Source of the DNA: a virus
Length of the DNA stretch: 20,580 bases
Reading direction: 5' to 3' (one strand)
Virus record (IMG/VR): IMGVR_UViG_3300038493_000007
Both the position numbers and the translations under genes were made by a program. The notes under the pieces are model-generated. The model saw only the letters and a list, made by a program, of their open reading frames with translations. It was not told where the DNA came from and did no database searches. Positions 1,997 to 19,456 of the stretch are shown in pieces. How positions within the stretch are numbered: the first letter of the stretch is position 1; each line of letters begins with the position of its first letter.

Positions 1997-2302
1997 TCAC
2001 CTATTGATAATCTTTGTCAATTCCCTTATTGTTACTTTTTTACCATCTTTTCTCAATTCTCTTCTTACATACACGTTCTTCGTACTCTGCTGCATACTTA
2101 TATCCATAATGTAGTTATGACCATTGAATGAAAATTCCATGTGATATGAGTTCTCCTCTTCCGCTTTTCTTCTTTGAAACGCCAAATCGTACGGCGTCCA
2201 AAAGTATGCACTATCGTACCTTTTCCATAAATTTATGTATTCTTTCACTTTTTCCTTTGTTATTTCCTTCATTTCCGTTTCCATTTTCTCAATCACGTCC
2301 AT
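1997..2302 (-). CDS. Hypothetical protein, 101 aa
   Basis: ORF with upstream TTTATA box; 7 nt from the next gene. Confidence 0.75.
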   Translation of the reverse strand: MDVIEKMETEMKEITKEKVKEYINLWKRYDSAYFWTPYDLAFQRRKAEEENSYHMEFSFNGHNYIMDISMQQSTKNVYVRRELRKDGKKVTIRELTKIINR

Positions 2303-2329
2303 CCCATTCCGGGATAATATAGTATTACA

Positions 2330-2358
2330 AACTAGAATATAAATGTTTTGTTCTAGTT
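2330..2358 (-). promoter_or_regulatory. TATA box (2338-2343) enclosed by an 8-bp inverted repeat AACTAGAA/TTCTAGTT
   Basis: Perfect 8-bp arms at 2330-2337 and 2351-2358, read directly from the sequence; upstream of the 2302 start. Confidence 0.5.
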
Positions 2359-2516
2359 ATTTGTTTTCATTGAGGACGATAAAAATAAGATGTTGGATAA
2401 ATCAGTCTGTAATGCCCAGTTTCTCTCTCTGTTTGACTATGTTCTTTATCTTCTCCTTGTTAGGGTGAAAAAGGAGGAGTTTAAAGACATTCAAAGAGTG
2501 TATGAAAATAGTTAAA

Positions 2517-2522
2517 TTTAAA
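2517..2522 (+). promoter_or_regulatory. Putative TATA box (TTTAAA) for a leaderless transcript of the TGT-like gene
   Basis: 23 nt between the box and the ATG at 2546; no RBS before the ATG. Confidence 0.5.
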
Positions 2523-2545
2523 GGGTATGTGGTCCTATACATCAG

Positions 2546-3691
2546 ATGACGTTCACTCCTATATTTGTAGCAGACAGACCAGCTTCACTTAAAATCCTGT
2601 CTGGTTTAATAAATCATAGAGGAGAATTCGGGATCCTTGCCCATGCATTTACAACTGATAATTTCAAAAGGAAATTTAAAGACTTTAATCTAGCAAAATG
2701 GAAGATAGGGGATTCCGGAATATATCAGGGGAAAGATATTCCTTATGAGCTACTTTTTGGTGAATATTTAAAGATGGGTGTTACCCACGGTATTATAAAA
2801 GATTATTATCGCGATCCAGAAAAAACCCTAAAGAGTGCTAAAACGGCGATTGATAAATATCACGCTCTTAATTACAATGAACACTTTAAACTGGTGGGAG
2901 TTGCACAGGGAAGCACTCCTGAGGATTATCTTGAAAATTATACGCAGCAAAAGAAACTTGGTTTTGAAATGGTTGCGATTGGTGGGCTGCTTGATAAGAT
3001 TGAAAACCACGTACGCATGGTTAGAATCAAAAAGGAAGGTTTATTAAAAGAGACTCTGACAATTATTGGGGAAAGATTTCCCAAGGATGATTTATTTCCA
3101 TTAGGTTCATTCAGTAGATCAAGAATAGGCATGTTCAAAGAGCTAGGAATCTGGGGTTCTGACTACAAGGGATGGATATTCAGATATAATATGGAAGAAA
3201 GCCACACTAAGGGCAATAGGTTTGAGCAGACAAGAAAGTACATTGAGACGCAAATATTTCCATTAGTGAATAAGGAAAGGTTATTGATCTTATCGTGCTC
3301 TGATAGAAAAAAAGCTGATAGGGCAAAGGCTATAGATTTGTATGATGGTCCTGCATTTAGAGTTGTCAGGAAATATCTAAAAACAAAAGATGGGGTGGAT
3401 GTTAAAATTTTATCTGCAAAGTACGGACTAATCAGTCAGGATGAAATCATCGATACATATAATCAAAAGATGACACCAGAAAATGCGAAAATGTACAGGA
3501 AAAGATACTTAAGGGAGATTAAATTACTCGAAAATTCCTTTAAAGACGCATTCTTCTTTGGCGGCAAGTTATATCAATCCGTAGTGAGCAAAAGCGATAT
3601 TAAATGTAGTGAGGGAAAAATAGGGGAAAAGCTTGGGAAATTAAAAATTTGGTTGAATAGTGAAGATAACCAAGAAAATAAAAAAGTTTAA
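2546..3691 (+). CDS. tRNA-guanine transglycosylase-fold (DpdA-like) protein fused to a C-terminal DUF6884-like domain
   Basis: TGT motifs in the correct order: GDSG (D56), IKD (D86), VAQG (Q121), AIGGL (G146-147), LG, GSD (D206). No CxCxxC Zn site. The C-terminus LLILSCSDRKK...A-DLYDGPAF...ILSAKYGLI resembles DUF6884 from memory. Confidence 0.75.
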   Translation: MTFTPIFVADRPASLKILSGLINHRGEFGILAHAFTTDNFKRKFKDFNLAKWKIGDSGIYQGKDIPYELLFGEYLKMGVTHGIIKDYYRDPEKTLKSAKTAIDKYHALNYNEHFKLVGVAQGSTPEDYLENYTQQKKLGFEMVAIGGLLDKIENHVRMVRIKKEGLLKETLTIIGERFPKDDLFPLGSFSRSRIGMFKELGIWGSDYKGWIFRYNMEESHTKGNRFEQTRKYIETQIFPLVNKERLLILSCSDRKKADRAKAIDLYDGPAFRVVRKYLKTKDGVDVKILSAKYGLISQDEIIDTYNQKMTPENAKMYRKRYLREIKLLENSFKDAFFFGGKLYQSVVSKSDIKCSEGKIGEKLGKLKIWLNSEDNQENKKV

Positions 3692-3715
3692 ATAATACAA
3701 GTTCTATATTATTGT

Positions 3716-4123
3716 ATGGAAGCAAATAAAGGGAAAAATAATTTCATCACACACGCTATTGGTCTTTATAAAGCGGCATATGATCTTTCAAGGGACGGTT
3801 ATCAAGTTAAAATTGATACATCAGCATCAAAATCTGGACACATAAAAATACAAAAAAATGGGAAGGATTTCTATGTAATGATCAAGGCACTAACTGATTT
3901 AGCACCAGTTCCATTTGCCTCAGATTATGAGATAACAGAAAAGTTTGATCATCTTCTTATTTGCGTTGGAGTATATAATGAACTTATTTCCTACTATAAA
4001 CTGGATATGCAGTATGCGAGAAGCAAGATAATTCAGAATATAGATAAGAATGGAGAAGTTAGTCATTGGATGAATGTACCTGAGTATGAAGAATTTAAAG
4101 TAAATTCTTTGATATTCCCTTAA
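3716..4123 (+). CDS. Small PD-(D/E)xK restriction-endonuclease-fold-like protein with degenerate catalytic motif
   Basis: Pattern IGLY..AYDLSRDGYQV...GHIKI...YVMIKA: helix-G-strand...x-K architecture, with His and Met where Asp and Glu/Gln are expected. Same AT-rich cassette and strand as the TGT-like gene. Confidence 0.5.
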   Translation: MEANKGKNNFITHAIGLYKAAYDLSRDGYQVKIDTSASKSGHIKIQKNGKDFYVMIKALTDLAPVPFASDYEITEKFDHLLICVGVYNELISYYKLDMQYARSKIIQNIDKNGEVSHWMNVPEYEEFKVNSLIFP

Positions 4124-4219
4124 AATTAAACATAACAACCCTGCATAAAAGTAAAATTAGTTTGACTGAGAAGGGAATGAAGAATGGAGAGATGCTAAAT
4201 AAAGTAGAGGGAATTAAGG

Positions 4220-4245
4220 AGATTTAAAAAATATAATGGAAAATC
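4220..4245 (-). terminator. Possible oligo-T terminator after the virion-protein operon
   Basis: Minus strand reads TATTTTTTAAAT, followed by a long pyrimidine-rich tract just after the 4251 stop; convergent with the 3716-4123 gene. Confidence 0.3.
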
Positions 4246-4250
4246 CAGGA

Positions 4251-4454
4251 CTATACTTTGTTCTTGTATTTCCTTTTCTTGGTTCTTGGAGATCTCCCTT
4301 CGAACCCCCAGCCATGCCTTGACCGGACTCTTTCAGCCCGCCTTGCACCTGTTGAGGTTCTCTTCCATTTTGCGACGCCTTTCATCGCATTCTCATGGTA
4401 GATCAGGCGATCACGTTTGGTTATCCTTCTCGTTTTTCTTGTTTTTGCCATCAC
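4251..4454 (-). CDS. Extremely basic 67-aa protein, putative genome-condensing nucleoprotein
   Basis: Very Arg/Lys-rich (MMAKTRKTRRITKRDR...RTKKRKYKNKV); GGAGGTG RBS; last gene of the membrane-protein operon. Confidence 0.75.
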   Translation of the reverse strand: MMAKTRKTRRITKRDRLIYHENAMKGVAKWKRTSTGARRAERVRSRHGWGFEGRSPRTKKRKYKNKV

Positions 4455-4457
4455 TTA

Positions 4458-4676
4458 TCACCTCCTGTTCCTGTGTATCAATTCCCTAATGCGTTTTCGC
4501 TCCCTGGGGCGATGTTTGTTGAACGCCTCAAGTGCGGCCAGTTTCCTATCGACCTCTCCCTTTCCGGGATGCTTATCTGCCTCGTGTATTGCCTTCATCT
4601 GCTCCTTTTCAGGCGAATGTAAATTGAAGCCATACTTGGAGAGGCTCCCCTTATGCCTTATTCTTATCTTTGCCAA
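4458..4676 (-). CDS. Basic 72-aa protein, putative virion DNA-binding protein
   Basis: KGSLSKYGF motif, helical, Arg-rich C-terminus; abuts its neighbours. Confidence 0.75.
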   Translation of the reverse strand: MAKIRIRHKGSLSKYGFNLHSPEKEQMKAIHEADKHPGKGEVDRKLAALEAFNKHRPRERKRIRELIHRNRR

Positions 4677-4919
4677 TCAATCACCTTTACTGCTCGACTT
4701 CGCTCCAATATAGATCATGCCCAGCGACAGTATGAGTGTGAGGGCATATACCAGATCCATGAAGAGCGTTATGGACGGCATTGCTGTGAACCTTCCTGCC
4801 ACATCGTATATTCCAGTCCCTATCCATCCCTCAAAGCTGTACTTCAATTTTCCCTCGATAGCCTCCACTATCACATAGAAAAAAAGAAGCACACCTATGA
4901 GGAACAAGAGTGGCCTCAT
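4677..4919 (-). CDS. 80-aa protein with two hydrophobic helices, candidate major capsid/envelope protein
   Basis: Hydrophobic N- and C-terminal helices with a polar linker. Size and topology match spindle-shaped-virus capsid proteins (topology only). Confidence 0.7.
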   Translation of the reverse strand: MRPLLFLIGVLLFFYVIVEAIEGKLKYSFEGWIGTGIYDVAGRFTAMPSITLFMDLVYALTLILSLGMIYIGAKSSSKGD

Positions 4920-13800: not shown

Positions 13801-16281
13801 ATCTGGTGTATTCATCCAAGAAATTACAGTATTTCCCTGTGATTGCTGTTCGGATATGCTCATATTCTGGAATACTAAATAATAATTGGATGAGGTAGAG
13901 TTCGATTTTCCCACATATCCTGTTGCACTCAAGACATTCTCAAAGCTCGGCAATACCTGTAATTCAACTTGGCTTGTGCCGTATGGCATTTTTACCCACA
14001 TGGTCAGAGAAGTGCTATTGAAATTTTGAATCCAAGTATACAACAGGGTGCCGTTTGGAAGGGCAATCTGGAAATTGCTTGCCTGCGAGTTGATGCCGTA
14101 ATAGCTTGGAACGTGACCTGTGGTGGATGGACTTAAGGTTATGAGTTGCTGATAATCTCCTGTTCCGCTTGGAGGACTTGAGATGGTGATCGGGTAGGAA
14201 TGGGTTGCATTCGCAGACTGCAATACTGTAACCTTATTGCTGTATTCAGTAGGTGTTAGATTCGAACCATACTGGAAAGTGATCGACTGGGAATAGCCAT
14301 ACTGATCGACTGCCTGCCATGTAACGAGAAGAGGAGCGGATACGGGCTGGGTGAAATCGTATTTGACTGTTCCTGATGTCAGATCGGGATGGAACCTGTC
14401 CTCAAGGACGCCGTTGACTGTAAGGTTTATTATTGTCATCTTTGCCGATGTCTGAGTGCTGTATGCGAGAGACATCAAAACGGAGGTGCCAACGGACGAA
14501 TAATCAACTGGGCTTGGCGTGAGGGAGAAGGGGACAACATTCACCGTTGCTGACTGCGTCGAAGAGTTCAGCTCTGAGCCGGGATAAGGATTTCCGTTGG
14601 GATCATTGTGAACATACCAGTCGATAATTTTCTGCCCCGTTGAATGGAAATAGAAGGAGGGCGACGCAAGGGATTCAGACGAAGTGGGCGATGAATGGAT
14701 GTAAGGCTTGCCATTGGCGCTTACGGCAAGGTTCTGTTGCTCCCCTAATATGACCTCTGTGGAATTCGCATACAGGTCAAGAGGCGTGAGGGGGTTTACA
14801 GGCGTTGCTACGTTGCTGTTCACAATGGAAGGATGGTAGTTGATGAACTCATCGAAATTGTATGAAACTGCGGATGAGCTGTCCACAACTACGGCTGTTC
14901 CCTGGCTAACCGAATTGTACTCAGCCGAAGGCGCAAAAGAGGATGATGAAATATCCGAACCAGAATAGAAAATCCTGTCAAAGGCCGGAGACTGTCCGTA
15001 GCCTACAGAAAGGATATGGTTTATGCTCCATGTCATTGTCGTTTCCGCATCTATTGTTCCGGATGTCGTTGACAGCGACGGATTGTTTAAAGCTCCGCTG
15101 GGATCGGTTAGGGTTAAACTTAAAGTCGAATTCCACCAGTTCTGTTGTTGTGTCGGGTTCTGGGCTCCAGTGAATGTTTGAGTCGTCGAAGTTGATTGTG
15201 CCTGTTCAATATTGGAAATATAATATTCAACTGTGTATCCACCACCACTGATTAATGCTAAATTTGGCGTTGCTTCCGGAATAAATGTGATAGATTCAAC
15301 AGAGACCGCACCTGTAAATGTATATGGCACAGCTTCCGTTACCCCGTTGTAAACCGCATTCGTAGCGTATTGCTCATTCTCAGTTACAACGTTAAATGAA
15401 GTTACGTCTGAATATGACCATGAAGAAGACGCAGAATTAAAATGATAACCAATATCGTAAGGAACAGATGCTCCCTCATCAGCAATGGACGTCTGAGTAG
15501 TATATGTGTTCCCACTTTGATCTGTAGAGGTGGCGACACCGTTTTCAGATGAACTTCCACCTGATGCCCAGCTATTTAAATTCAAAGTGCCTGTAATTGA
15601 TGTAATTGCTGTACTTTGAAGTGTGATTGTAACTCTCAAAGAACCATATGCGGTAATACCACTTGTAACACCAAATATATTCCATGTTGGATCAACATAC
15701 ATCACGTGAGGACTGGTACTATAATCTTGACTAAACGATGTTGTTGACCAGGAAACGGTTCCTCCCGTAAAACCGTTTGTAGCTGGAACAGTGAGATTTA
15801 CGTATATAATTCCTGGTGTGTACACATAATGACATGTACCTCCCAATGTATCTATTTGGTCAGAATATTGCCCCATAAACGCTAAATCCTGCAATTGGAC
15901 AGTATTTGTGTCCGCATTAGCCCAGAATTGTGAAGAACTAACAGTAAATGATGTCGTTGTCTCTGCTCCGGTACTTGATATGCTAAATACCTGAGAAGGA
16001 TCACTATATGAAGTTGTTGTGTATCCCCTATTTTCAGCAGCGTGCATCGTTACAGTACTCACACCTGAATTACTCTGTAGAACATTGTGATAATACGAAG
16101 TTGTTGTATTCACGTAAGCCGTATTCGAATATGAACTTGCTATTGCGGATGACGTGATTGGTGTAGAAATCGGAGTACTTGTTCCGTTACTAAAACTCGG
16201 CATGTCCGCAAACATAGTAACTATCGGAACACCAATCATAATGAGTGAAAAAATTAAGGCTATTGTTTTCTTATTCATCAA
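10807..16281 (-). CDS. Giant 1824-aa membrane-anchored adhesin/receptor-binding glycoprotein with a DUF2341-like domain and a probable lectin-like module
   Basis: N-terminal signal, Ser/Thr/Asn/Tyr-rich beta-type sequence, many sequons. DUF2341-like stretch YPITI...DYQQLITL...FQIALPNGTLLYTWIQ...MWVKMP. C-terminal TM LLYTILGTLAVLAGAWGI plus a cytoplasmic tail. Confidence 0.85.
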   Translation of the reverse strand: MMNKKTIALIFSLIMIGVPIVTMFADMPSFSNGTSTPISTPITSSAIASSYSNTAYVNTTTSYYHNVLQSNSGVSTVTMHAAENRGYTTTSYSDPSQVFSISSTGAETTTSFTVSSSQFWANADTNTVQLQDLAFMGQYSDQIDTLGGTCHYVYTPGIIYVNLTVPATNGFTGGTVSWSTTSFSQDYSTSPHVMYVDPTWNIFGVTSGITAYGSLRVTITLQSTAITSITGTLNLNSWASGGSSSENGVATSTDQSGNTYTTQTSIADEGASVPYDIGYHFNSASSSWSYSDVTSFNVVTENEQYATNAVYNGVTEAVPYTFTGAVSVESITFIPEATPNLALISGGGYTVEYYISNIEQAQSTSTTQTFTGAQNPTQQQNWWNSTLSLTLTDPSGALNNPSLSTTSGTIDAETTMTWSINHILSVGYGQSPAFDRIFYSGSDISSSSFAPSAEYNSVSQGTAVVVDSSSAVSYNFDEFINYHPSIVNSNVATPVNPLTPLDLYANSTEVILGEQQNLAVSANGKPYIHSSPTSSESLASPSFYFHSTGQKIIDWYVHNDPNGNPYPGSELNSSTQSATVNVVPFSLTPSPVDYSSVGTSVLMSLAYSTQTSAKMTIINLTVNGVLEDRFHPDLTSGTVKYDFTQPVSAPLLVTWQAVDQYGYSQSITFQYGSNLTPTEYSNKVTVLQSANATHSYPITISSPPSGTGDYQQLITLSPSTTGHVPSYYGINSQASNFQIALPNGTLLYTWIQNFNSTSLTMWVKMPYGTSQVELQVLPSFENVLSATGYVGKSNSTSSNYYLVFQNMSISEQQSQGNTVISWMNTPDNGQTDTLPDGTTGYREVLTTDASITRPQYSFYKIPFAGSIQVSGWELIPNSNAFYVVSPTETPSLPANNPGAYVIAGTQGYTGYSFQLYSNQTLLNSQYYAPSTWQYFTFTYYQNNGSGIFTEGNDPGSIVKSYSFSTSFTNESYIGIGEWGGETGGSGGASNYYHTKIAYWGAGSMPTYTIGTGSVFQANATTTSTFSGAPTGNYNATYVYDTYNIPIAPSTNYVTVTFNSTWRLSNIYPSTYLPLQNSNFVTIEDVTGFTSVQVTLIEPSSQIGSTTYQSIDYQMPSGITPPVNYFTNTITITPFASSSQTTEKTTAQFVQIPYGSSISIDVTDPWGDSVGSISNYVVANTTGSITIPLDVTELQFSFFNSTENYVYLSHNGINESFYNSAIVANDTTFQWFTSYYSITSGQEQGKSGTVTTDEPIQPLLIYLKAPAGQLQVEVNAYNGSNLGTLSNSGNPRVLSFIDGTPYTLGSTFTGYQGSTYTIRIADLLNQTLLETNVTLQSSFTSLTEMITTPSYWMGIENDEQVPQNSPLATEYVSLNQTGSSHHYNFTDSVGQNWQGYFLAGNYTIHMHDNVTNTFFVNISTSNQQFYLNGQALLNLTDFDKKINQLLNYTESVQNTTYGLRLVPSSSSVSVLTDQVASFSWDVYYQNYTSFPTSDLKNSTIFVQIRNSTGSVQSFAASTSASGNTVTYTTTPTTTGYFTVGVDVLYGKYAGSSSQSLQVSAPQKVSVGMSVAFGITQSLDTNKSYVVPLYMLYGNGTRFNLTDTADAFPYTTLYVLQGNTVIHTYAPVNYSAGTIDFNIAPLGTGQYTFYASVSQFNLSGTPVHAAITQTENVQPASLSALGEFEAFWEQIGHGLATNLLYTILGTLAVLAGAWGIRKIIKWLRGDKATNTKITDYILSNAVQKLQRPYDNLPQTLAVFTSLEYSEQNAFLLASHEVLRLREVTIGGKKSSLEKVRDYIVKVKRQPDGESLLARIEKKFASGSGKK

Positions 16282-16627
16282 GCAATCTCACCCCATTTTC
16301 GGAATAATATTTTTTCATATCTCTTCCATTTAATTGCGATAACACAACAAAAAACTTTTCATCGTGTGGATTGATTCTTAAACCGTACTTCTCATTAGTA
16401 ATATAGTGTGCGAGTTCGTGAAGAGCTACTTCGTTGCGCTTTTCGATGGTTTCAAAATTAGAATCTAAATAAATAGTATTACCTATTATCTTTGCTCTTT
16501 GCCGTGTGTGTTTTTTGAAATTTGGTTTAAAAGATTTTTCTTTCCATTGAAGATTATACAGATATCTAATATACTGTGGCGCATTTTGTTGCGTGATTCT
16601 AAACACTTCATCACTAAACGTGTTCAT
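16271..16627 (-). CDS. SprT/YgjP-like HExxH Zn-metallopeptidase-domain protein
   Basis: VALHELAH followed by PHDEKFF (downstream His); strongly AT-rich. Confidence 0.7.
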   Translation of the reverse strand: MNTFSDEVFRITQQNAPQYIRYLYNLQWKEKSFKPNFKKHTRQRAKIIGNTIYLDSNFETIEKRNEVALHELAHYITNEKYGLRINPHDEKFFVVLSQLNGRDMKKYYSENGVRLLDE

Positions 16628-17677: not shown

Positions 17678-18444
17678 TGCGTCACCTCGATTGTCATAGA
17701 CATGTACTCCTGCTCCATCTTCTTCCTCAGTTCATTCCTGGTTCTTTCAGAGTTGACCTTCGGCTTGAATTTCATAAAGTAGTCAAGAGGCATTTCTCCC
17801 TGAGGAGCTCTTCTAAGGATTACGTCATCCTCAAATTCCCTGTATTTGTCCTCTTTGATTTCAAGCATGTATCTCTGTGAAAGATCTTTGAAATCCAGAT
17901 TGAGGGATTTAGGCAAATCAAGAATGCGGTTGCCATCAGTCCTGTATAATGCTGTGATATGAACCTTGCAGTTCATACTAGTATGCTCTGTGAACTGCCA
18001 GCTCCCATTCTTGAATATTAATTCTTCCTTCCCCCAGTAGCCGTCTTCAACCTGTTTGGAAATCAGTTTTTCAAGGGGGAGTCTCTTTGGCGGACTGAAA
18101 ATACCCTGTACATAGAGAGATCGCATGTACCATGCTCCCATCTCCTCCTCTATTCTTTGGTCGATCCTCAATCTCTTTCTTTCCTCGAGGGTTCTCTTCA
18201 GCCTGGTTAATTCGATCTCCTTCACGGAGAGCTGGCCTTTAAGCTCGATGATCTCCTTGTCAAGGTCATTTATCCTTAATTCCAGGTTATCCTTTGGCAT
18301 CAGTGAGTGTATGAATGTCCTATAGAGTTCAGATGCATTGTACTGTGGATTGTCTCGCAGGAAAGATTCAGTCTCAGGATCTGTTGTGATCGTCCTGGTT
18401 AATCTCTTTGAGATGCCTCTGGATGGTCTTCCGACTTTCCTCAT
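17674..18444 (-). CDS. DNA-binding (GRP + RHH-like N-terminus) coiled-coil protein
   Basis: MRKVGRPSRG, then TRTITTDPETESFL...NASELYRTFI (RHH-like pattern), then a long heptad stretch; GGAGG RBS. Confidence 0.75.
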   Translation of the reverse strand: MRKVGRPSRGISKRLTRTITTDPETESFLRDNPQYNASELYRTFIHSLMPKDNLELRINDLDKEIIELKGQLSVKEIELTRLKRTLEERKRLRIDQRIEEEMGAWYMRSLYVQGIFSPPKRLPLEKLISKQVEDGYWGKEELIFKNGSWQFTEHTSMNCKVHITALYRTDGNRILDLPKSLNLDFKDLSQRYMLEIKEDKYREFEDDVILRRAPQGEMPLDYFMKFKPKVNSERTRNELRKKMEQEYMSMTIEVTQ

Positions 18445-19313
18445 CTTTCCATCCTCCAGATCCTAGAGATCTTACTTAAAAAATAAAAAAAAGTAGTTAG
18501 TAAGTAAGTAGTAAGTAAAGTAAATAAATAATTTAAATAATTATTTATATTATAAAAAAAGAGAGAATCACTGGTTTTCTGGAATGAGTAGTTTTGAATT
18601 TCAGTATTTACAAAAATTATTAGAGCCTGCAAATTACTGCTTCTGCAAGATGTAATTATTTTTGAATAATTAGTATGTATTGAAATCTGGTTCTCCTCCA
18701 ATTGTTTCCCTGTTCGTGGTGGGACTTTGATCTGCTCGGACCACTGTTTTGCCATCGCACTGGCGATTCCGGGGCAGGTGATCGATCGTTCTTTGGGTCG
18801 GTCTAGGCTGGGGGGCATCTTCCATATTCTCTGTTCCCTTCCCTCCACGATGTCTGTCGGTGTAAGTTTGGGCAGATTCTTAAGCCACAGACAAGTTGCT
18901 TTTGTCTCTCCATGTCCGAACTGCCAGGGCTGGATGACCTGATCCGGTTTTCTGATAAGCTCTCTTGCATATTTATGCTGTATAGGATTTTCAACCGCTA
19001 TCATGGGAATATCACTATTAAGAAGTATGTTGAAGAATTCCGCACCCTTCCTCATGTTCTCCCACCGTTCCTCATTTCTTGTTTTATCAGGATTATATAA
19101 CCATCTGACTCCAGAGTTGGAAAGATAAGTGCATGGAGGATGTGCTACAATCATGTCCCACCCATCACTCAAGTGTTTCAGGACATCGTCCTGGATATGG
19201 TAAGGAGAAGATATCTCCGTAGGTAGGAGATCGCAGGACCATGCTTCGTGCCCTCTCTTCCTGAATGCCTCCCTGACGACTCCGGAAAATTCACATGCTA
19301 CGAGGATTTTCAT
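18441..19313 (-). CDS. DNA cytosine-C5 methyltransferase (small viral type) with a low-complexity C-terminal extension
   Basis: Motif I variant ACEFSG, CDL, catalytic AHPPC, VENP, QPWQFG..K.TCLW, GIASAMAKQW. True start is probably ATG 19313 (ATGA overlap) rather than 19373. Confidence 0.85.
   Translation of the reverse strand: MKILVACEFSGVVREAFRKRGHEAWSCDLLPTEISSPYHIQDDVLKHLSDGWDMIVAHPPCTYLSNSGVRWLYNPDKTRNEERWENMRKGAEFFNILLNSDIPMIAVENPIQHKYARELIRKPDQVIQPWQFGHGETKATCLWLKNLPKLTPTDIVEGREQRIWKMPPSLDRPKERSITCPGIASAMAKQWSEQIKVPPRTGKQLEENQISIHTNYSKIITSCRSSNLQALIIFVNTEIQNYSFQKTSDSLFFYNINNYLNYLFTLLTTYLLTTFFYFLSKISRIWRMER
18474..18560. repeat. AT-rich low-complexity tract with degenerate (A)AGTA tandem units; candidate replication origin or regulatory region
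   Basis: AAGTAGTTAGTAAGTAAGTAGTAAGTAAAGTAAATAAATAA (18491-18531), then an almost purely A/T stretch. Confidence 0.55.
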
Positions 19314-19456
19314 TGCTTCTGCCCCCTGGGGCTGTTGGGTAGCAGCACCCAGTATCTTTTGCAATCTGTGCAAACCAGATGCATTGACTTGATTTTTCCG
19401 TCACCTGATAGCGTTAGGGTCTCACTTCCGCAGTTGGGGCAGTAAATCTCGGTCAT
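19310..19456 (-). CDS. 48-aa Zn-ribbon protein (missed by the ORF track)
   Basis: Manual translation MTEIYCPNCGSETLTLSGDGKIKSMHLVCTDCKRYWVLLPNSPRGQKQ; ATGA overlaps at both ends. Confidence 0.8.
   Translation of the reverse strand: MTEIYCPNCGSETLTLSGDGKIKSMHLVCTDCKRYWVLLPNSPRGQKQ

What the first reader, a model, noticed from the sequence alone, without database searches (positions are those of the whole stretch)
2546..4123. Stand-alone two-gene cassette: DpdA-like transglycosylase-DUF6884 fusion + degenerate restriction-fold protein
Seen: an AT-rich cassette on the opposite strand to its neighbours, with its own TATA box. The first protein keeps all TGT catalytic and base-binding positions (D56, D86, Q121, G146/147, D206), lacks the Zn site and carries a DUF6884-like C-terminal domain. 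The second protein has a PD-(D/E)xK-like layout with the acidic catalytic residues replaced. No folE/queC/queD/queE genes are in the window. Established: DpdA paralogs of TGT insert 7-deazaguanines into DNA, and many archaea make preQ0 for archaeosine. Inference: the virus may draw on host preQ0 to modify its own DNA, with the small protein acting as an inactive modification reader or specificity partner. Alternatively the pair is a compact modification/restriction or superinfection-exclusion system, or a base-excising (abasic-site-forming) effector. I do not know of this architecture being described.
Basis: partly seen in the sequence, partly recalled or inferred. Interest (0 to 1): 0.8.

Follow-up and report, generated by a model that had tools for sequence, protein, structure and literature searches.

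The report
Virus-borne fused DNA deazaguanine-marking enzyme
A virus-like element of acid-loving archaea carries only the DNA-marking half of a Dpd-type defence system, as one fused enzyme plus a small disabled-nuclease partner, so it probably disguises its own DNA with a 7-deazaguanine mark made from a host precursor.

Summary
ORF A (2546-3691, 381 aa) is a stripped TGT/DpdA-fold barrel that keeps D56, D86, Q121, G146/G147 and D206. It has no zinc subdomain and is fused to a DUF6884 domain with the CxxxK and LSAxxG motifs. ORF B (3716-4123, 135 aa) has a restriction-endonuclease fold in which the catalytic Asp and Glu/Gln positions are His42 and Met55.

ORF A is not a one-off. It belongs to a family spread across archaea and bacteria whose barrel is nearly always fused or operon-linked to DUF6884. 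The family sits beside interchangeable restriction-type modules: DpdJ/DpdK-like, NurA-like/HerA, or SIR2-ORC.

In two Thermoplasmatales loci the same A+B pair ends a five-gene DpdJ/DpdK-like cluster. The window keeps only A+B.

Best reading (about 0.55): this is an orphan modification module that inserts host preQ0 into the element's DNA, and the DUF6884 domain may process it further, to mimic the host self-mark. This is inferred; no chemistry has been shown.

I found no paper describing the fusion. Earlier notes of this scan report it in at least 21 other genomes. The placement on a virus-like element and partner B are the new points here.

Novelty: a new variant of a known kind.

The parts
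2512..2523 (+). TATA-like box (TTAAATTTAAAG; TTTAAA at 2517-2522) centred about 26 nt upstream of the ORF A start
   Evidence: Read from the sequence. It is one of two copies of a 21-nt direct repeat, 2466-2486 and 2503-2523. Promoter function is inferred only.
2546..3691 (+). ORF A, 381 aa: DpdA/TGT-like barrel fused to DUF6884
   Evidence: 283 homologues were found. The start matches that of the homologues.
2546..3265 (+). ORF A N-domain (aa 1-240): TIM barrel of the TGT/DpdA type without the zinc subdomain. Predicted roles: D56 general acid/base, D86 and Q121 base recognition, G146/G147, D206 nucleophile
   Evidence: Foldseek to 7ui4 and TGTs at E 1e-8. hhalign probability 95.8%. Motif table. 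Residue conservation. Residue roles come from PMC10164549.
3272..3670 (+). ORF A C-domain (aa 243-375): DUF6884 with C251-x3-K255 and L289-S-A-x-x-G294
   Evidence: Pfam PF21818 E 4.9e-16. PADLOC DpdC E 3.9e-7 and PDC-M57A E 7e-15. hhalign to ArcS DUF5591 gives probability 85% and E 5.9e-6, with Cys and Lys aligned. YaaA motif match.
3716..4123 (+). ORF B, 135 aa: restriction-endonuclease-fold protein with the canonical Asp and Glu/Gln replaced by H42 and M55, and K57 kept
   Evidence: It starts 24 nt after ORF A. A TTTAAATA overlaps the ORF A stop codon.

Best explanation
The cassette is the modification half of a compact archaeal Dpd-like restriction-modification system, carried without its restriction genes by a virus-like element of Thermoplasmatales.

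ORF A's barrel is predicted to work like DpdA. D206 would displace a guanine from double-stranded DNA through a covalent sugar-enzyme intermediate, with D56 acting as acid/base. A 7-deazaguanine base would then be inserted, most likely preQ0 taken from the host's archaeosine pathway.

The fused DUF6884 domain is kin to DpdC and to the ArcS catalytic domain. It is predicted either to process the 7-cyano group of the inserted base, for instance to the amide ADG through a Cys251 thioimidate, or at least to hold the DNA and flipped base for the barrel.

ORF B is a nuclease-fold protein that has lost its metal-binding acids. It is predicted to be a DNA-binding accessory of the marking enzyme (a site-specificity or loading factor), not a cutter.

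The pay-off for the element would be DNA carrying the host-type self-mark, which would escape Dpd-like and other guanine-dependent restriction.

Shown here: the folds, the conserved residues, the gene neighbourhoods and the host pathway genes. Inferred: the substrate, the product, the role of ORF B and the anti-restriction benefit.
For: Fold and active site.

The profiles that recognise the protein are DpdA and DpdC models.

The barrel and DUF6884 are linked in three ways: fused, split within one operon (for example L024, L036, L042), or placed beside a canonical TGT-like gene (L045, L051).

The closest cellular loci, L001, L002 and L057, place the gene after a DpdJ-like helicase (E 6.5e-40) and a DpdK-like PLD nuclease (E 1.4e-12). 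In L002 and L057 the ORF B homologue follows directly. L057 lies in a defence island with Bsp6I and a C5 methylase.

Each partner module already has its own effector (PLD, NurA-like or SIR2). That leaves this gene as the shared non-effector component, meaning the marker.

Links to 7-deazaguanine: QueC is present in 11 of 15 host genomes, including 5 of 5 Thermoplasmata. A YhhQ-family preQ0-transporter gene lies just upstream of the operon in three Chloroflexi loci, and is present in 3 of 4 genomes that lack QueC. A Haloarcula locus has an ArcS-like / DUF6884 / TGT trio.

The DUF6884 Cys-x3-Lys aligns with the PC-x3-KPY motif of ArcS.

Precedent: phage DpdA protects phage DNA, and singleton DpdA genes occur in viruses (PMC6884629, PMC10516641).

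ORF B travels with ORF A on the element although the restriction genes do not.
Against: No chemistry was measured, so the target, the base and the product are all inferred.

The protein fails the curated cut-offs of TGT (17.9 against 26.3 bits), DpdA (29 against 200 bits) and YaaA/DUF328.

Four bacterial genomes with the wider system lack QueC. One complete Acidimicrobiia chromosome lacks both QueC and YhhQ, so preQ0 cannot be the universal substrate unless it is salvaged some other way.

Bacterial DpdA needs the ATPase DpdB, and no equivalent sits in the cassette.

L001 and L003, which are close relatives, lack ORF B, so B is dispensable for the enzyme.

Neither gene was found in IMG/VR or in deposited phages as a fusion.

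I found no terminal overlap.
Confidence: 0.55

Rival explanations
1. Base-excision or crosslinking weapon. The barrel removes guanine from DNA without inserting a new base, which leaves abasic sites or covalent protein-DNA adducts. DUF6884 acts on the abasic site. ORF B is an immunity or targeting partner. On the element this would serve to attack host DNA or rival elements.
For: The TGT mechanism passes through a covalent Asp-DNA intermediate (PMC10164549). A DUF6884 member, YfjM, was reported to interact with abasic lesions (PMC11701544). Some host genomes lack preQ0 synthesis. The family sits in defence operons. The element also has a SprT-like protease gene.
Against: Each operon type already has a separate effector (PLD, NurA-like or SIR2). 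A YhhQ preQ0 transporter and ArcS-like genes lie next to the operon in some loci. An unguarded guanine-excising enzyme would harm the element's own DNA. Nothing suggests that ORF B is an inhibitor.
Confidence: 0.12
2. Compact two-gene restriction-modification or addiction module. ORF A marks DNA and ORF B cuts unmarked DNA, which gives superinfection exclusion or stabilises the element.
For: ORF B has a restriction-endonuclease fold and is always adjacent to ORF A. It keeps K57, D23, and the invariant H13 and H42, which could form a non-canonical active site. The Foldseek hits include metal-independent splicing endonucleases.
Against: The canonical Asp and Glu/Gln, present in distant relatives, are His and Met in the whole ORF B subfamily. 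In L002 and L057 the pair sits with a dedicated PLD nuclease and helicase. Close ORF A relatives function without ORF B (L001, L003).
Confidence: 0.1
3. Same base-exchange chemistry but with a different incoming base. The enzyme inserts some other purine analogue, or a different 7-deazaguanine derivative, which the DUF6884 domain helps to make or select.
For: The subfamily is very divergent and fails all curated cut-offs. The system occurs in genomes without QueC. STSV2 carries a DpdA and an unexplained dCDG (PMC10516641).
Against: The guanine and 7-deazaguanine contact residues D86 and Q/H121 are conserved. The YhhQ and ArcS links point to preQ0-type bases.
Confidence: 0.1
4. A tRNA-modifying enzyme that alters host or viral tRNA, in the manner of ArcTGT.
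For: TGT fold and catalytic residues. Archaeal tRNA carries archaeosine.
Against: The protein has no zinc subdomain and no ArcTGT C-terminal tRNA-binding domains. Hosts have their own full-length ArcTGT. The neighbours are DNA helicases, nucleases and HerA. Profile similarity is better to DpdA than to TGT.
Confidence: 0.04

Closest known systems
Dpd system of Salmonella enterica serovar Montevideo (DpdA + DpdB + DpdC modification; DpdD-K restriction; PDB 7ui4; PMC10164549)
   Same: The barrel is TGT-fold with the same Asp/Asp/Asp plus Gln/His active-site layout. A DpdC-related domain is present. In the cellular relatives L001, L002 and L057, DpdJ-like helicase and DpdK-like PLD genes are adjacent. 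The predicted logic is a 7-deazaguanine self-mark.
   Different: The DpdA and DpdC functions are fused in one 381-aa protein. No DpdB ATPase is present. There is no zinc or Ins8 subdomain. The score is far below the DpdA model cut-off. The second domain is DUF6884 rather than DUF328. On the element all restriction genes are missing. The hosts are archaeal.
Viral DpdA subfamilies (DpdA1-3 of phages; DpdA4/DUF6610 of haloviruses; STSV DpdA) (PMC6884629, PMC10516641)
   Same: A DNA transglycosylase borne on a virus, sometimes as a singleton that relies on host preQ0, and used to escape restriction. The model matches phage DpdAs in BFVD, including nt-1, phiST and a Sulfolobales rod-shaped virus.
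   Different: There is no Pfam hit to DUF6610. No deposited phage or IMG/VR contig carries this fusion. It is fused to DUF6884 and paired with a degenerate nuclease-fold protein.
ArcS (archaeosine synthase, DUF5591 domain) and YaaA/DUF328
   Same: The DUF6884 domain shares the strand-Cys-x3-Lys motif with ArcS PC-x3-KPY. It shares the LSxxYG...Y..(K/E)M motif with YaaA. ArcS and DpdC both act on the nitrile of a preQ0 residue already in a nucleic acid.
   Different: The match to ArcS is profile-level only (probability 85%). The domain lacks the helical insert of YaaA, and lacks the TGT-like and PUA domains of ArcS.
BREX-related capture (BRC) systems with HerA, GNAT and TGT (PMC12839542)
   Same: A TGT homologue is recruited as the putative DNA-marking module of a HerA-containing defence system.
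   Different: BRC has PglZ, BrxC-like, STAND and GNAT components, and reportedly has no DpdC homologue. Here the partners are NurA-like/HerA, SIR2-ORC or DpdJ/K, and a DpdC-like DUF6884 is nearly always present.
Small PD-(D/E)xK proteins (I-Ssp6803I, Hjc, NhoI / Eco15I N-domain)
   Same: ORF B has the same alpha-beta-beta-beta-alpha-beta core, with Z 7-11.
   Different: The catalytic Asp and Glu/Gln are replaced by His and Met. There is no sequence-level match to any PDB chain or Pfam family.

Membership tests
TGT superfamily (Pfam PF01702) | TIM-barrel fold of the TGT type | tested here: met
   Foldseek top hits are 7ui4 and many TGT chains, at E about 1e-8 and probability 1.00.
TGT superfamily (Pfam PF01702) | Nucleophile Asp, acid/base Asp, and base-binding Asp plus Gln/His | tested here: met
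   hhalign pairs D86, Q121, G146/147 and D206 with E. coli D143, Q187, G213/214 and D264. D56 matches by the DSG(G/I)(F/Y)Q motif only. Conserved in 42-43 of about 43 barrels.
TGT superfamily (Pfam PF01702) | Score over the curated Pfam cut-off | tested here: not met
   17.9 bits against 26.3; E 0.0017.
TGT superfamily (Pfam PF01702) | Zinc-binding subdomain (CxCxxC...H) | tested here: not met
   The protein has only two Cys (C251, C354). The barrel is followed directly by DUF6884.
Bacterial DpdA (NCBIfam NF041059) | Score over the equivalog cut-off | tested here: not met
   29.2 bits against 200.
Bacterial DpdA (NCBIfam NF041059) | Partner ATPase DpdB (ParB-like) in the cluster | tested here: not met
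   No ParB-like or DpdB hit in any scanned window ORF, nor in the scanned neighbours of L002, L004 and L012.
DpdA4 (DUF6610, PF20314) of archaeal viruses | Match to the DUF6610 profile | tested here: not met
   No hit at E up to 1 in the Pfam scan.
DUF6884 (PF21818) | Score over the cut-off, plus the CxxxK and LSAxxG motifs | tested here: met
   59.5 bits against 30. C251-S-D-R-K255 and L289-S-A-K-Y-G294 are present. Cys is kept in 56 of 58 family domains. The motifs are defined in PMC11701544.
DpdC / DUF328 (PF03883) | Score over the cut-off | tested here: not met
   PF03883 gives 13.9 bits against 29.6. Three PADLOC DpdC models match partially, at E 4e-7 to 3e-5.
DpdC / DUF328 (PF03883) | Converts preQ0-DNA to ADG-DNA | not testable with these tools
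   This needs an enzyme assay.
Dpd restriction-modification system | Restriction genes (DpdD-K) next to the modification genes | tested here: not met
   They are absent from the window. DpdJ-like and DpdK-like genes are present in the cellular relatives L001, L002 and L057.
PD-(D/E)xK nucleases (ORF B) | Restriction-endonuclease core fold | tested here: met
   VIA-align: I-Ssp6803I Z 10.8 (rmsd 2.9, 113 aligned), NhoI 9.8, Hjc 9.5.
PD-(D/E)xK nucleases (ORF B) | Catalytic Asp on strand 2 and (D/E/Q)xK on strand 3 | tested here: not met
   H42 and M55-I56-K57 stand where distant relatives have GVD and (Q/E)xK. The strand positions come from the model.

The most novel reading that the evidence does not exclude
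The cassette is a mobile 'epigenetic mimicry' unit. The DUF6884 domain would be a true nitrile-processing enzyme of a superfamily that unites DpdC, ArcS-DUF5591 and YaaA, so that one polypeptide both inserts preQ0 into DNA and converts it to a finished mark, possibly one not yet seen in DNA. ORF B would be a nuclease that evolved into a reader or targeting subunit for that mark. Together they would let a Thermoplasmatales virus copy the self-mark of its host's Dpd-like immunity.
Probability: 0.2. Interest if true: 0.75.

Novelty: new variant of a known kind. Interest (0 to 1): 0.55.

Why it matters
If the reading is right, 7-deazaguanine marking of DNA extends to Thermoplasmatales and their almost unknown viruses, through a transglycosylase subfamily that current DpdA/TGT models miss. 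The result gives the uncharacterised DUF6884 domain a testable job, and links it to the only two enzymes known to process preQ0 already sitting in a nucleic acid (DpdC and ArcS). It offers a minimal candidate for writing such marks, one or two small genes with no DpdB, which would be convenient for biochemistry. It also gives a clean natural example of a mobile element carrying only the marking half of a defence system that its hosts use.

Tried and rejected
- No whole genome is held for the window.
- IMG/VR scans with both family alignments found nothing.
- The single metagenome scan, run with the ORF B family, gave one locus, L057.
- Deposited phages and plasmids hold only stand-alone DUF6884 genes, not the fusion.
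- Sequence searches of the PDB gave nothing for ORF A alone, and only a short DpdA/TGT stretch with the family profile.
- Sequence searches of the PDB gave nothing real for the ORF B family.
- Rfam found no RNA, including no preQ1 riboswitch, in 2000-4700.
- The Atlas look-up of the 399-aa protein upstream in L002 gave nothing. Pfam and PADLOC gave nothing for it either.
- hhalign to single STSV2 proteins (DpdA and its 185-aa neighbour) was suggestive by motif but not significant, so I do not use it as evidence.
- A full phylogeny against reference DpdA1-4, ArcTGT and TGT was not built. At about 15% identity it would not be reliable, so I relied on profile scores and fold matches instead.
- A test for circularity of the window found no terminal overlap of 12 nt or more.
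- The methylase reading of ORF 18441-19373 got no Pfam or PDB support.
Full report
**What is there**

The window has two adjacent + strand ORFs, 2546-3691 (ORF A, 381 aa) and 3716-4123 (ORF B, 135 aa). They sit among genes that are almost all on the - strand. The pair is 34.4% GC against 45.4% for the rest of the window.

A TTTAAA box lies about 26 nt upstream of the ORF A start. A similar box overlaps the ORF A stop codon, 24 nt before ORF B. These fit leaderless archaeal transcripts, but they are only sequence readings.

An earlier follow-up of this scan (e1-5820113) judged the window to be a nearly complete virus-like element of Thermoplasmatales. I did not re-derive that, and I found no terminal overlap. 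Most of its other ORFs have no Pfam match.

**ORF A, N-terminal domain**

Curated profiles barely see this domain:
- Pfam TGT: E 0.0017, 17.9 bits against a cut-off of 26.3.
- NCBIfam DpdA: E 4e-7, 29 bits against a cut-off of 200.
- PADLOC DpdA: E 1.2e-6.

The fold is clear all the same. An AlphaFold model built on 29 homologues has pLDDT 91.7. Its best PDB matches are the DNA preQ0 insertase DpdA (7ui4) and then dozens of bacterial TGT chains, at E about 1e-8.

hhalign of the family against an E. coli Tgt-anchored alignment gives probability 95.8% and E 7.5e-9. It pairs D86 with D143, Q121 with the Gln of GIIQG, G146/G147 with AVGGL, and D206 with the nucleophile D264. The family profile also aligns GVAQG...AIGGL with GVAHG...TMGGM of DpdA. 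D56 sits in GDSGIYQ, the counterpart of TDSGGFQ (by motif).

In the model all five residues lie at the C-terminal ends of successive strands. The roles of the equivalent DpdA residues (D95 acid/base, D130 and H181 base contacts, D256 nucleophile) were established by mutagenesis (PMC10164549).

Across 55 loci from archaea and bacteria these positions are kept in 42-43 of about 43 barrels. The only common change is Q121 to His, which is the DpdA state.

There is no zinc subdomain. The protein has two Cys in all.

**ORF A, C-terminal domain**

Residues 247-353 match DUF6884 (E 4.9e-16) and carry its two signature motifs, CxxxK (C251...K255) and LSAxxG (289-294). These motifs are described in PMC11701544, which relates the family to YaaA.

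Three PADLOC DpdC models match residues 254-320 (E 4e-7 to 3e-5). The stretch ILSAKYGLI...TYNQKM mirrors MLSGLYGVL...PYRLEM of E. coli YaaA.

I also found that the domain aligns with the DUF5591 catalytic domain of ArcS from five archaeal genomes and a Haloarcula locus (hhalign probability 85%, E 5.9e-6). C251 and K255 fall on the Cys and Lys of the ArcS PC-x3-KPY motif.

DpdC (preQ0-DNA to ADG-DNA, PMC10164549) and ArcS (which acts on preQ0 in tRNA) are the two enzymes known to work on the nitrile of a preQ0 residue already in a polynucleotide. That gives the fusion a chemical logic, but it remains an inference.

**The family and its neighbours**

A word-indexed search found 283 relatives, many of them full-length, in Thermoplasmatota (Ferroplasma, Thermoplasmataceae) and Caldisphaera. 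The GTDB genome scan added 55 loci in Methanoperedens, Archaeoglobus, Methanosarcina, Planctomycetota, Cyanobacteriota, Chloroflexota and others.

I clustered the neighbouring ORFs of those loci, which gave three recurring contexts:

- **About 30 loci:** an optional stand-alone DUF6884, a 610-aa protein with a weak NurA hit, a HerA ATPase (PADLOC E 2.5e-81), then the barrel gene.
- **Six loci:** a SIR2-ORC/Cdc6 ATPase and a CARF-like protein precede the barrel gene.
- **The closest Thermoplasmata relatives (L001, L002):** a DpdJ-like helicase (E 6.5e-40), a DpdK-like PLD nuclease (E 1.4e-12) and an unknown 399-aa protein precede it.

Where the barrel protein lacks DUF6884, a stand-alone DUF6884 gene is usually in the same operon. 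In L045 the barrel slot is filled by a canonical TGT-like protein (PF01702, E 2.8e-18).

Each partner set has its own obvious effector (PLD, NurA-like or SIR2). The shared gene is therefore best read as the marking component.

In a tree of 57 family members, the window's protein falls in a well-supported clade of acidophile Thermoplasmatales sequences. Within that clade the partner modules differ (DpdJ/K in L001 and L002, HerA in L003), so the modules swap.

**Link to 7-deazaguanine**

- The window has no preQ0 synthesis gene.
- All five Thermoplasmata genomes carrying the family have QueC and a separate full-length ArcTGT. Three of them (those of L002, L010 and L015) were also tested for ArcS and have it.
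- Of 15 host genomes tested, 11 have QueC.
- The four without QueC are bacterial. Three of them have a YhhQ-family transporter. In three Chloroflexi loci a YhhQ gene lies a few genes upstream of the operon. This is the family shown to import preQ0 in E. coli, which I state from my own knowledge.
- A Haloarcula locus has ArcS-like, DUF6884 and TGT genes side by side.
- One complete Acidimicrobiia chromosome has the system but neither QueC nor YhhQ. I cannot explain this, and it counts against a universal preQ0 substrate.

**ORF B**

Pfam, NCBIfam and PHROGs give nothing significant for ORF B, and PADLOC gives only a weak GajA match at E 0.0045. It has only 13 close clusters, all 135 aa.

Its model (pLDDT 84) has the alpha-beta-beta-beta-alpha-beta order of restriction endonucleases. 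An all-against-representatives structure search puts I-Ssp6803I (Z 10.8), NhoI (9.8), Hjc (9.5, 8.7), PrfA/RecU (8.3) and PvuII (7.8) on top. The Foldseek hits are weaker but belong to the same superfamily.

A full HMM search of 1.8 billion representatives found 57 relatives, nearly all stand-alone and 130-150 aa long. In the distant relatives, strand 2 starts with G-V-D and strand 3 carries (Q/E)-x-K. ORF B and its nearest kin have G-H42 and M55-x-K57 at those columns. The canonical metal-binding residues are therefore lost in this subfamily while the Lys is kept.

**The pairing of A and B**

An ORF B homologue directly follows the ORF A homologue in L002 and in the one metagenome locus found, L057. 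In both it closes the same five-gene DpdJ/DpdK-like cluster.

Six further A/B cluster pairs share an identical longest-contig length: 12210, 27825, 14064, 2150, 10428 and 4880. No other locus has an ORF B relative within 8 kb, and L001 and L003 lack one.

L057 continues into a Bsp6I/C5-methylase pair and two HhH-GPD glycosylase genes, which marks it as a defence island.

**Reading**

The window keeps genes four and five of a five-gene Dpd-like cluster and drops the helicase, the nuclease and the unknown protein. A mobile element that keeps only the marking genes of a defence system used by its hosts is most simply explained as self-protection by mimicry.

This matches the role shown for phage DpdA (PMC6884629), and singleton DpdA genes are known in archaeal viruses (PMC10516641). 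Because ORF B stays with ORF A when the restriction genes go, I assign it to the marking side as a DNA-binding accessory. That is the weakest step in the argument.

The rivals are set out separately with their tests: a base-excision weapon, a two-gene restriction-modification or addiction pair, a different inserted base, and tRNA modification.

**Novelty**

I found no paper that describes a DpdA-like/DUF6884 fusion or links DUF6884 to TGT enzymes. The nearest published system is the HerA/GNAT/TGT 'BRC' system, which reportedly lacks a DpdC homologue (PMC12839542).

No deposited phage, plasmid or IMG/VR contig has the fusion. BFVD matches are separate: phage stand-alone DUF6884 proteins for the C-domain and phage DpdAs for the N-domain.

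Earlier notes of this scan already report the fusion and its NurA-HerA and DpdJ/K contexts in at least 21 other genomes. My neighbourhood analysis reproduces those readings independently.

The new points here are the orphan placement on a virus-like element, the degenerate nuclease-fold partner, and the ArcS-DUF5591 link. I class the finding as a new variant of a known kind.

Noticed in passing
window 16271-16627 (-): A 118-aa ORF with an HExxH motif matches SprT-like (Pfam E 1.1e-5, exactly at the cut-off of 25.6 bits). SprT/Wss1 proteases remove DNA-protein crosslinks. Its presence on an element that also encodes an enzyme working through a covalent DNA intermediate is curious.
   Followed up: no
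window 2330-2358 and 2466-2523: An inverted repeat (13-nt arms, 3-nt spacer, 85% complementary) lies in the divergent region upstream of ORF A. There is also a 21-nt direct repeat, each copy ending in TTTAAAG, 37 nt apart. These may be an operator and duplicated promoter boxes.
   Followed up: no
A1 rows P0101, P0117, P0118 (columns about 60-90): A subset of the family has a roughly 30-aa insert with four Cys (C..C..C..C) after the second strand of the barrel. It may be a zinc ribbon standing in for the missing TGT zinc subdomain.
   Followed up: no
L051:4045-7822 (Haloarcula sediminis): Three adjacent genes encode a TGT+DUF5591 (ArcS-like, 667 aa) protein, a stand-alone DUF6884 (152 aa) and a TGT-like protein (414 aa). 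This is another independent link between DUF6884 and 7-deazaguanine enzymes.
   Followed up: partly
L034:1413-2132, L044:6553-7236, L045:3193-3999 (Chloroflexi): A YhhQ/Vut_1 transporter gene (PF02592, E 5e-52) lies just upstream of the DUF6884 / NurA-like / HerA / TGT-like operon. In L045 an HPPK-GTP cyclohydrolase I fusion precedes it.
   Followed up: partly
L042 (Acidimicrobiia, complete 3.3-Mb chromosome): This genome has the DUF6884 / NurA-like / HerA / barrel operon but no QueC and no YhhQ. The source of any 7-deazaguanine base there is unexplained.
   Followed up: partly
L057:14125-18375: Downstream of the five-gene cluster lie two divergent HhH-GPD glycosylase genes, a C5 cytosine methylase (E 1e-87) and a Bsp6I-type restriction enzyme. 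The region is a defence island.
   Followed up: no
window 18441-19373 (-): A 310-aa ORF shows methylase-like motifs by eye (FSG, PPC, ENP) but has no Pfam or PDB sequence match. If it is a methylase, the element carries a second orphan DNA-marking gene.
   Followed up: partly
phage and plasmid records (e.g. Burkholderia phage KS14 gp8, Caulobacter phage Kronos): Stand-alone DUF6884 genes are common on temperate phages and on plasmids of many bacteria. This suggests the domain has a use for mobile elements on its own.
   Followed up: no
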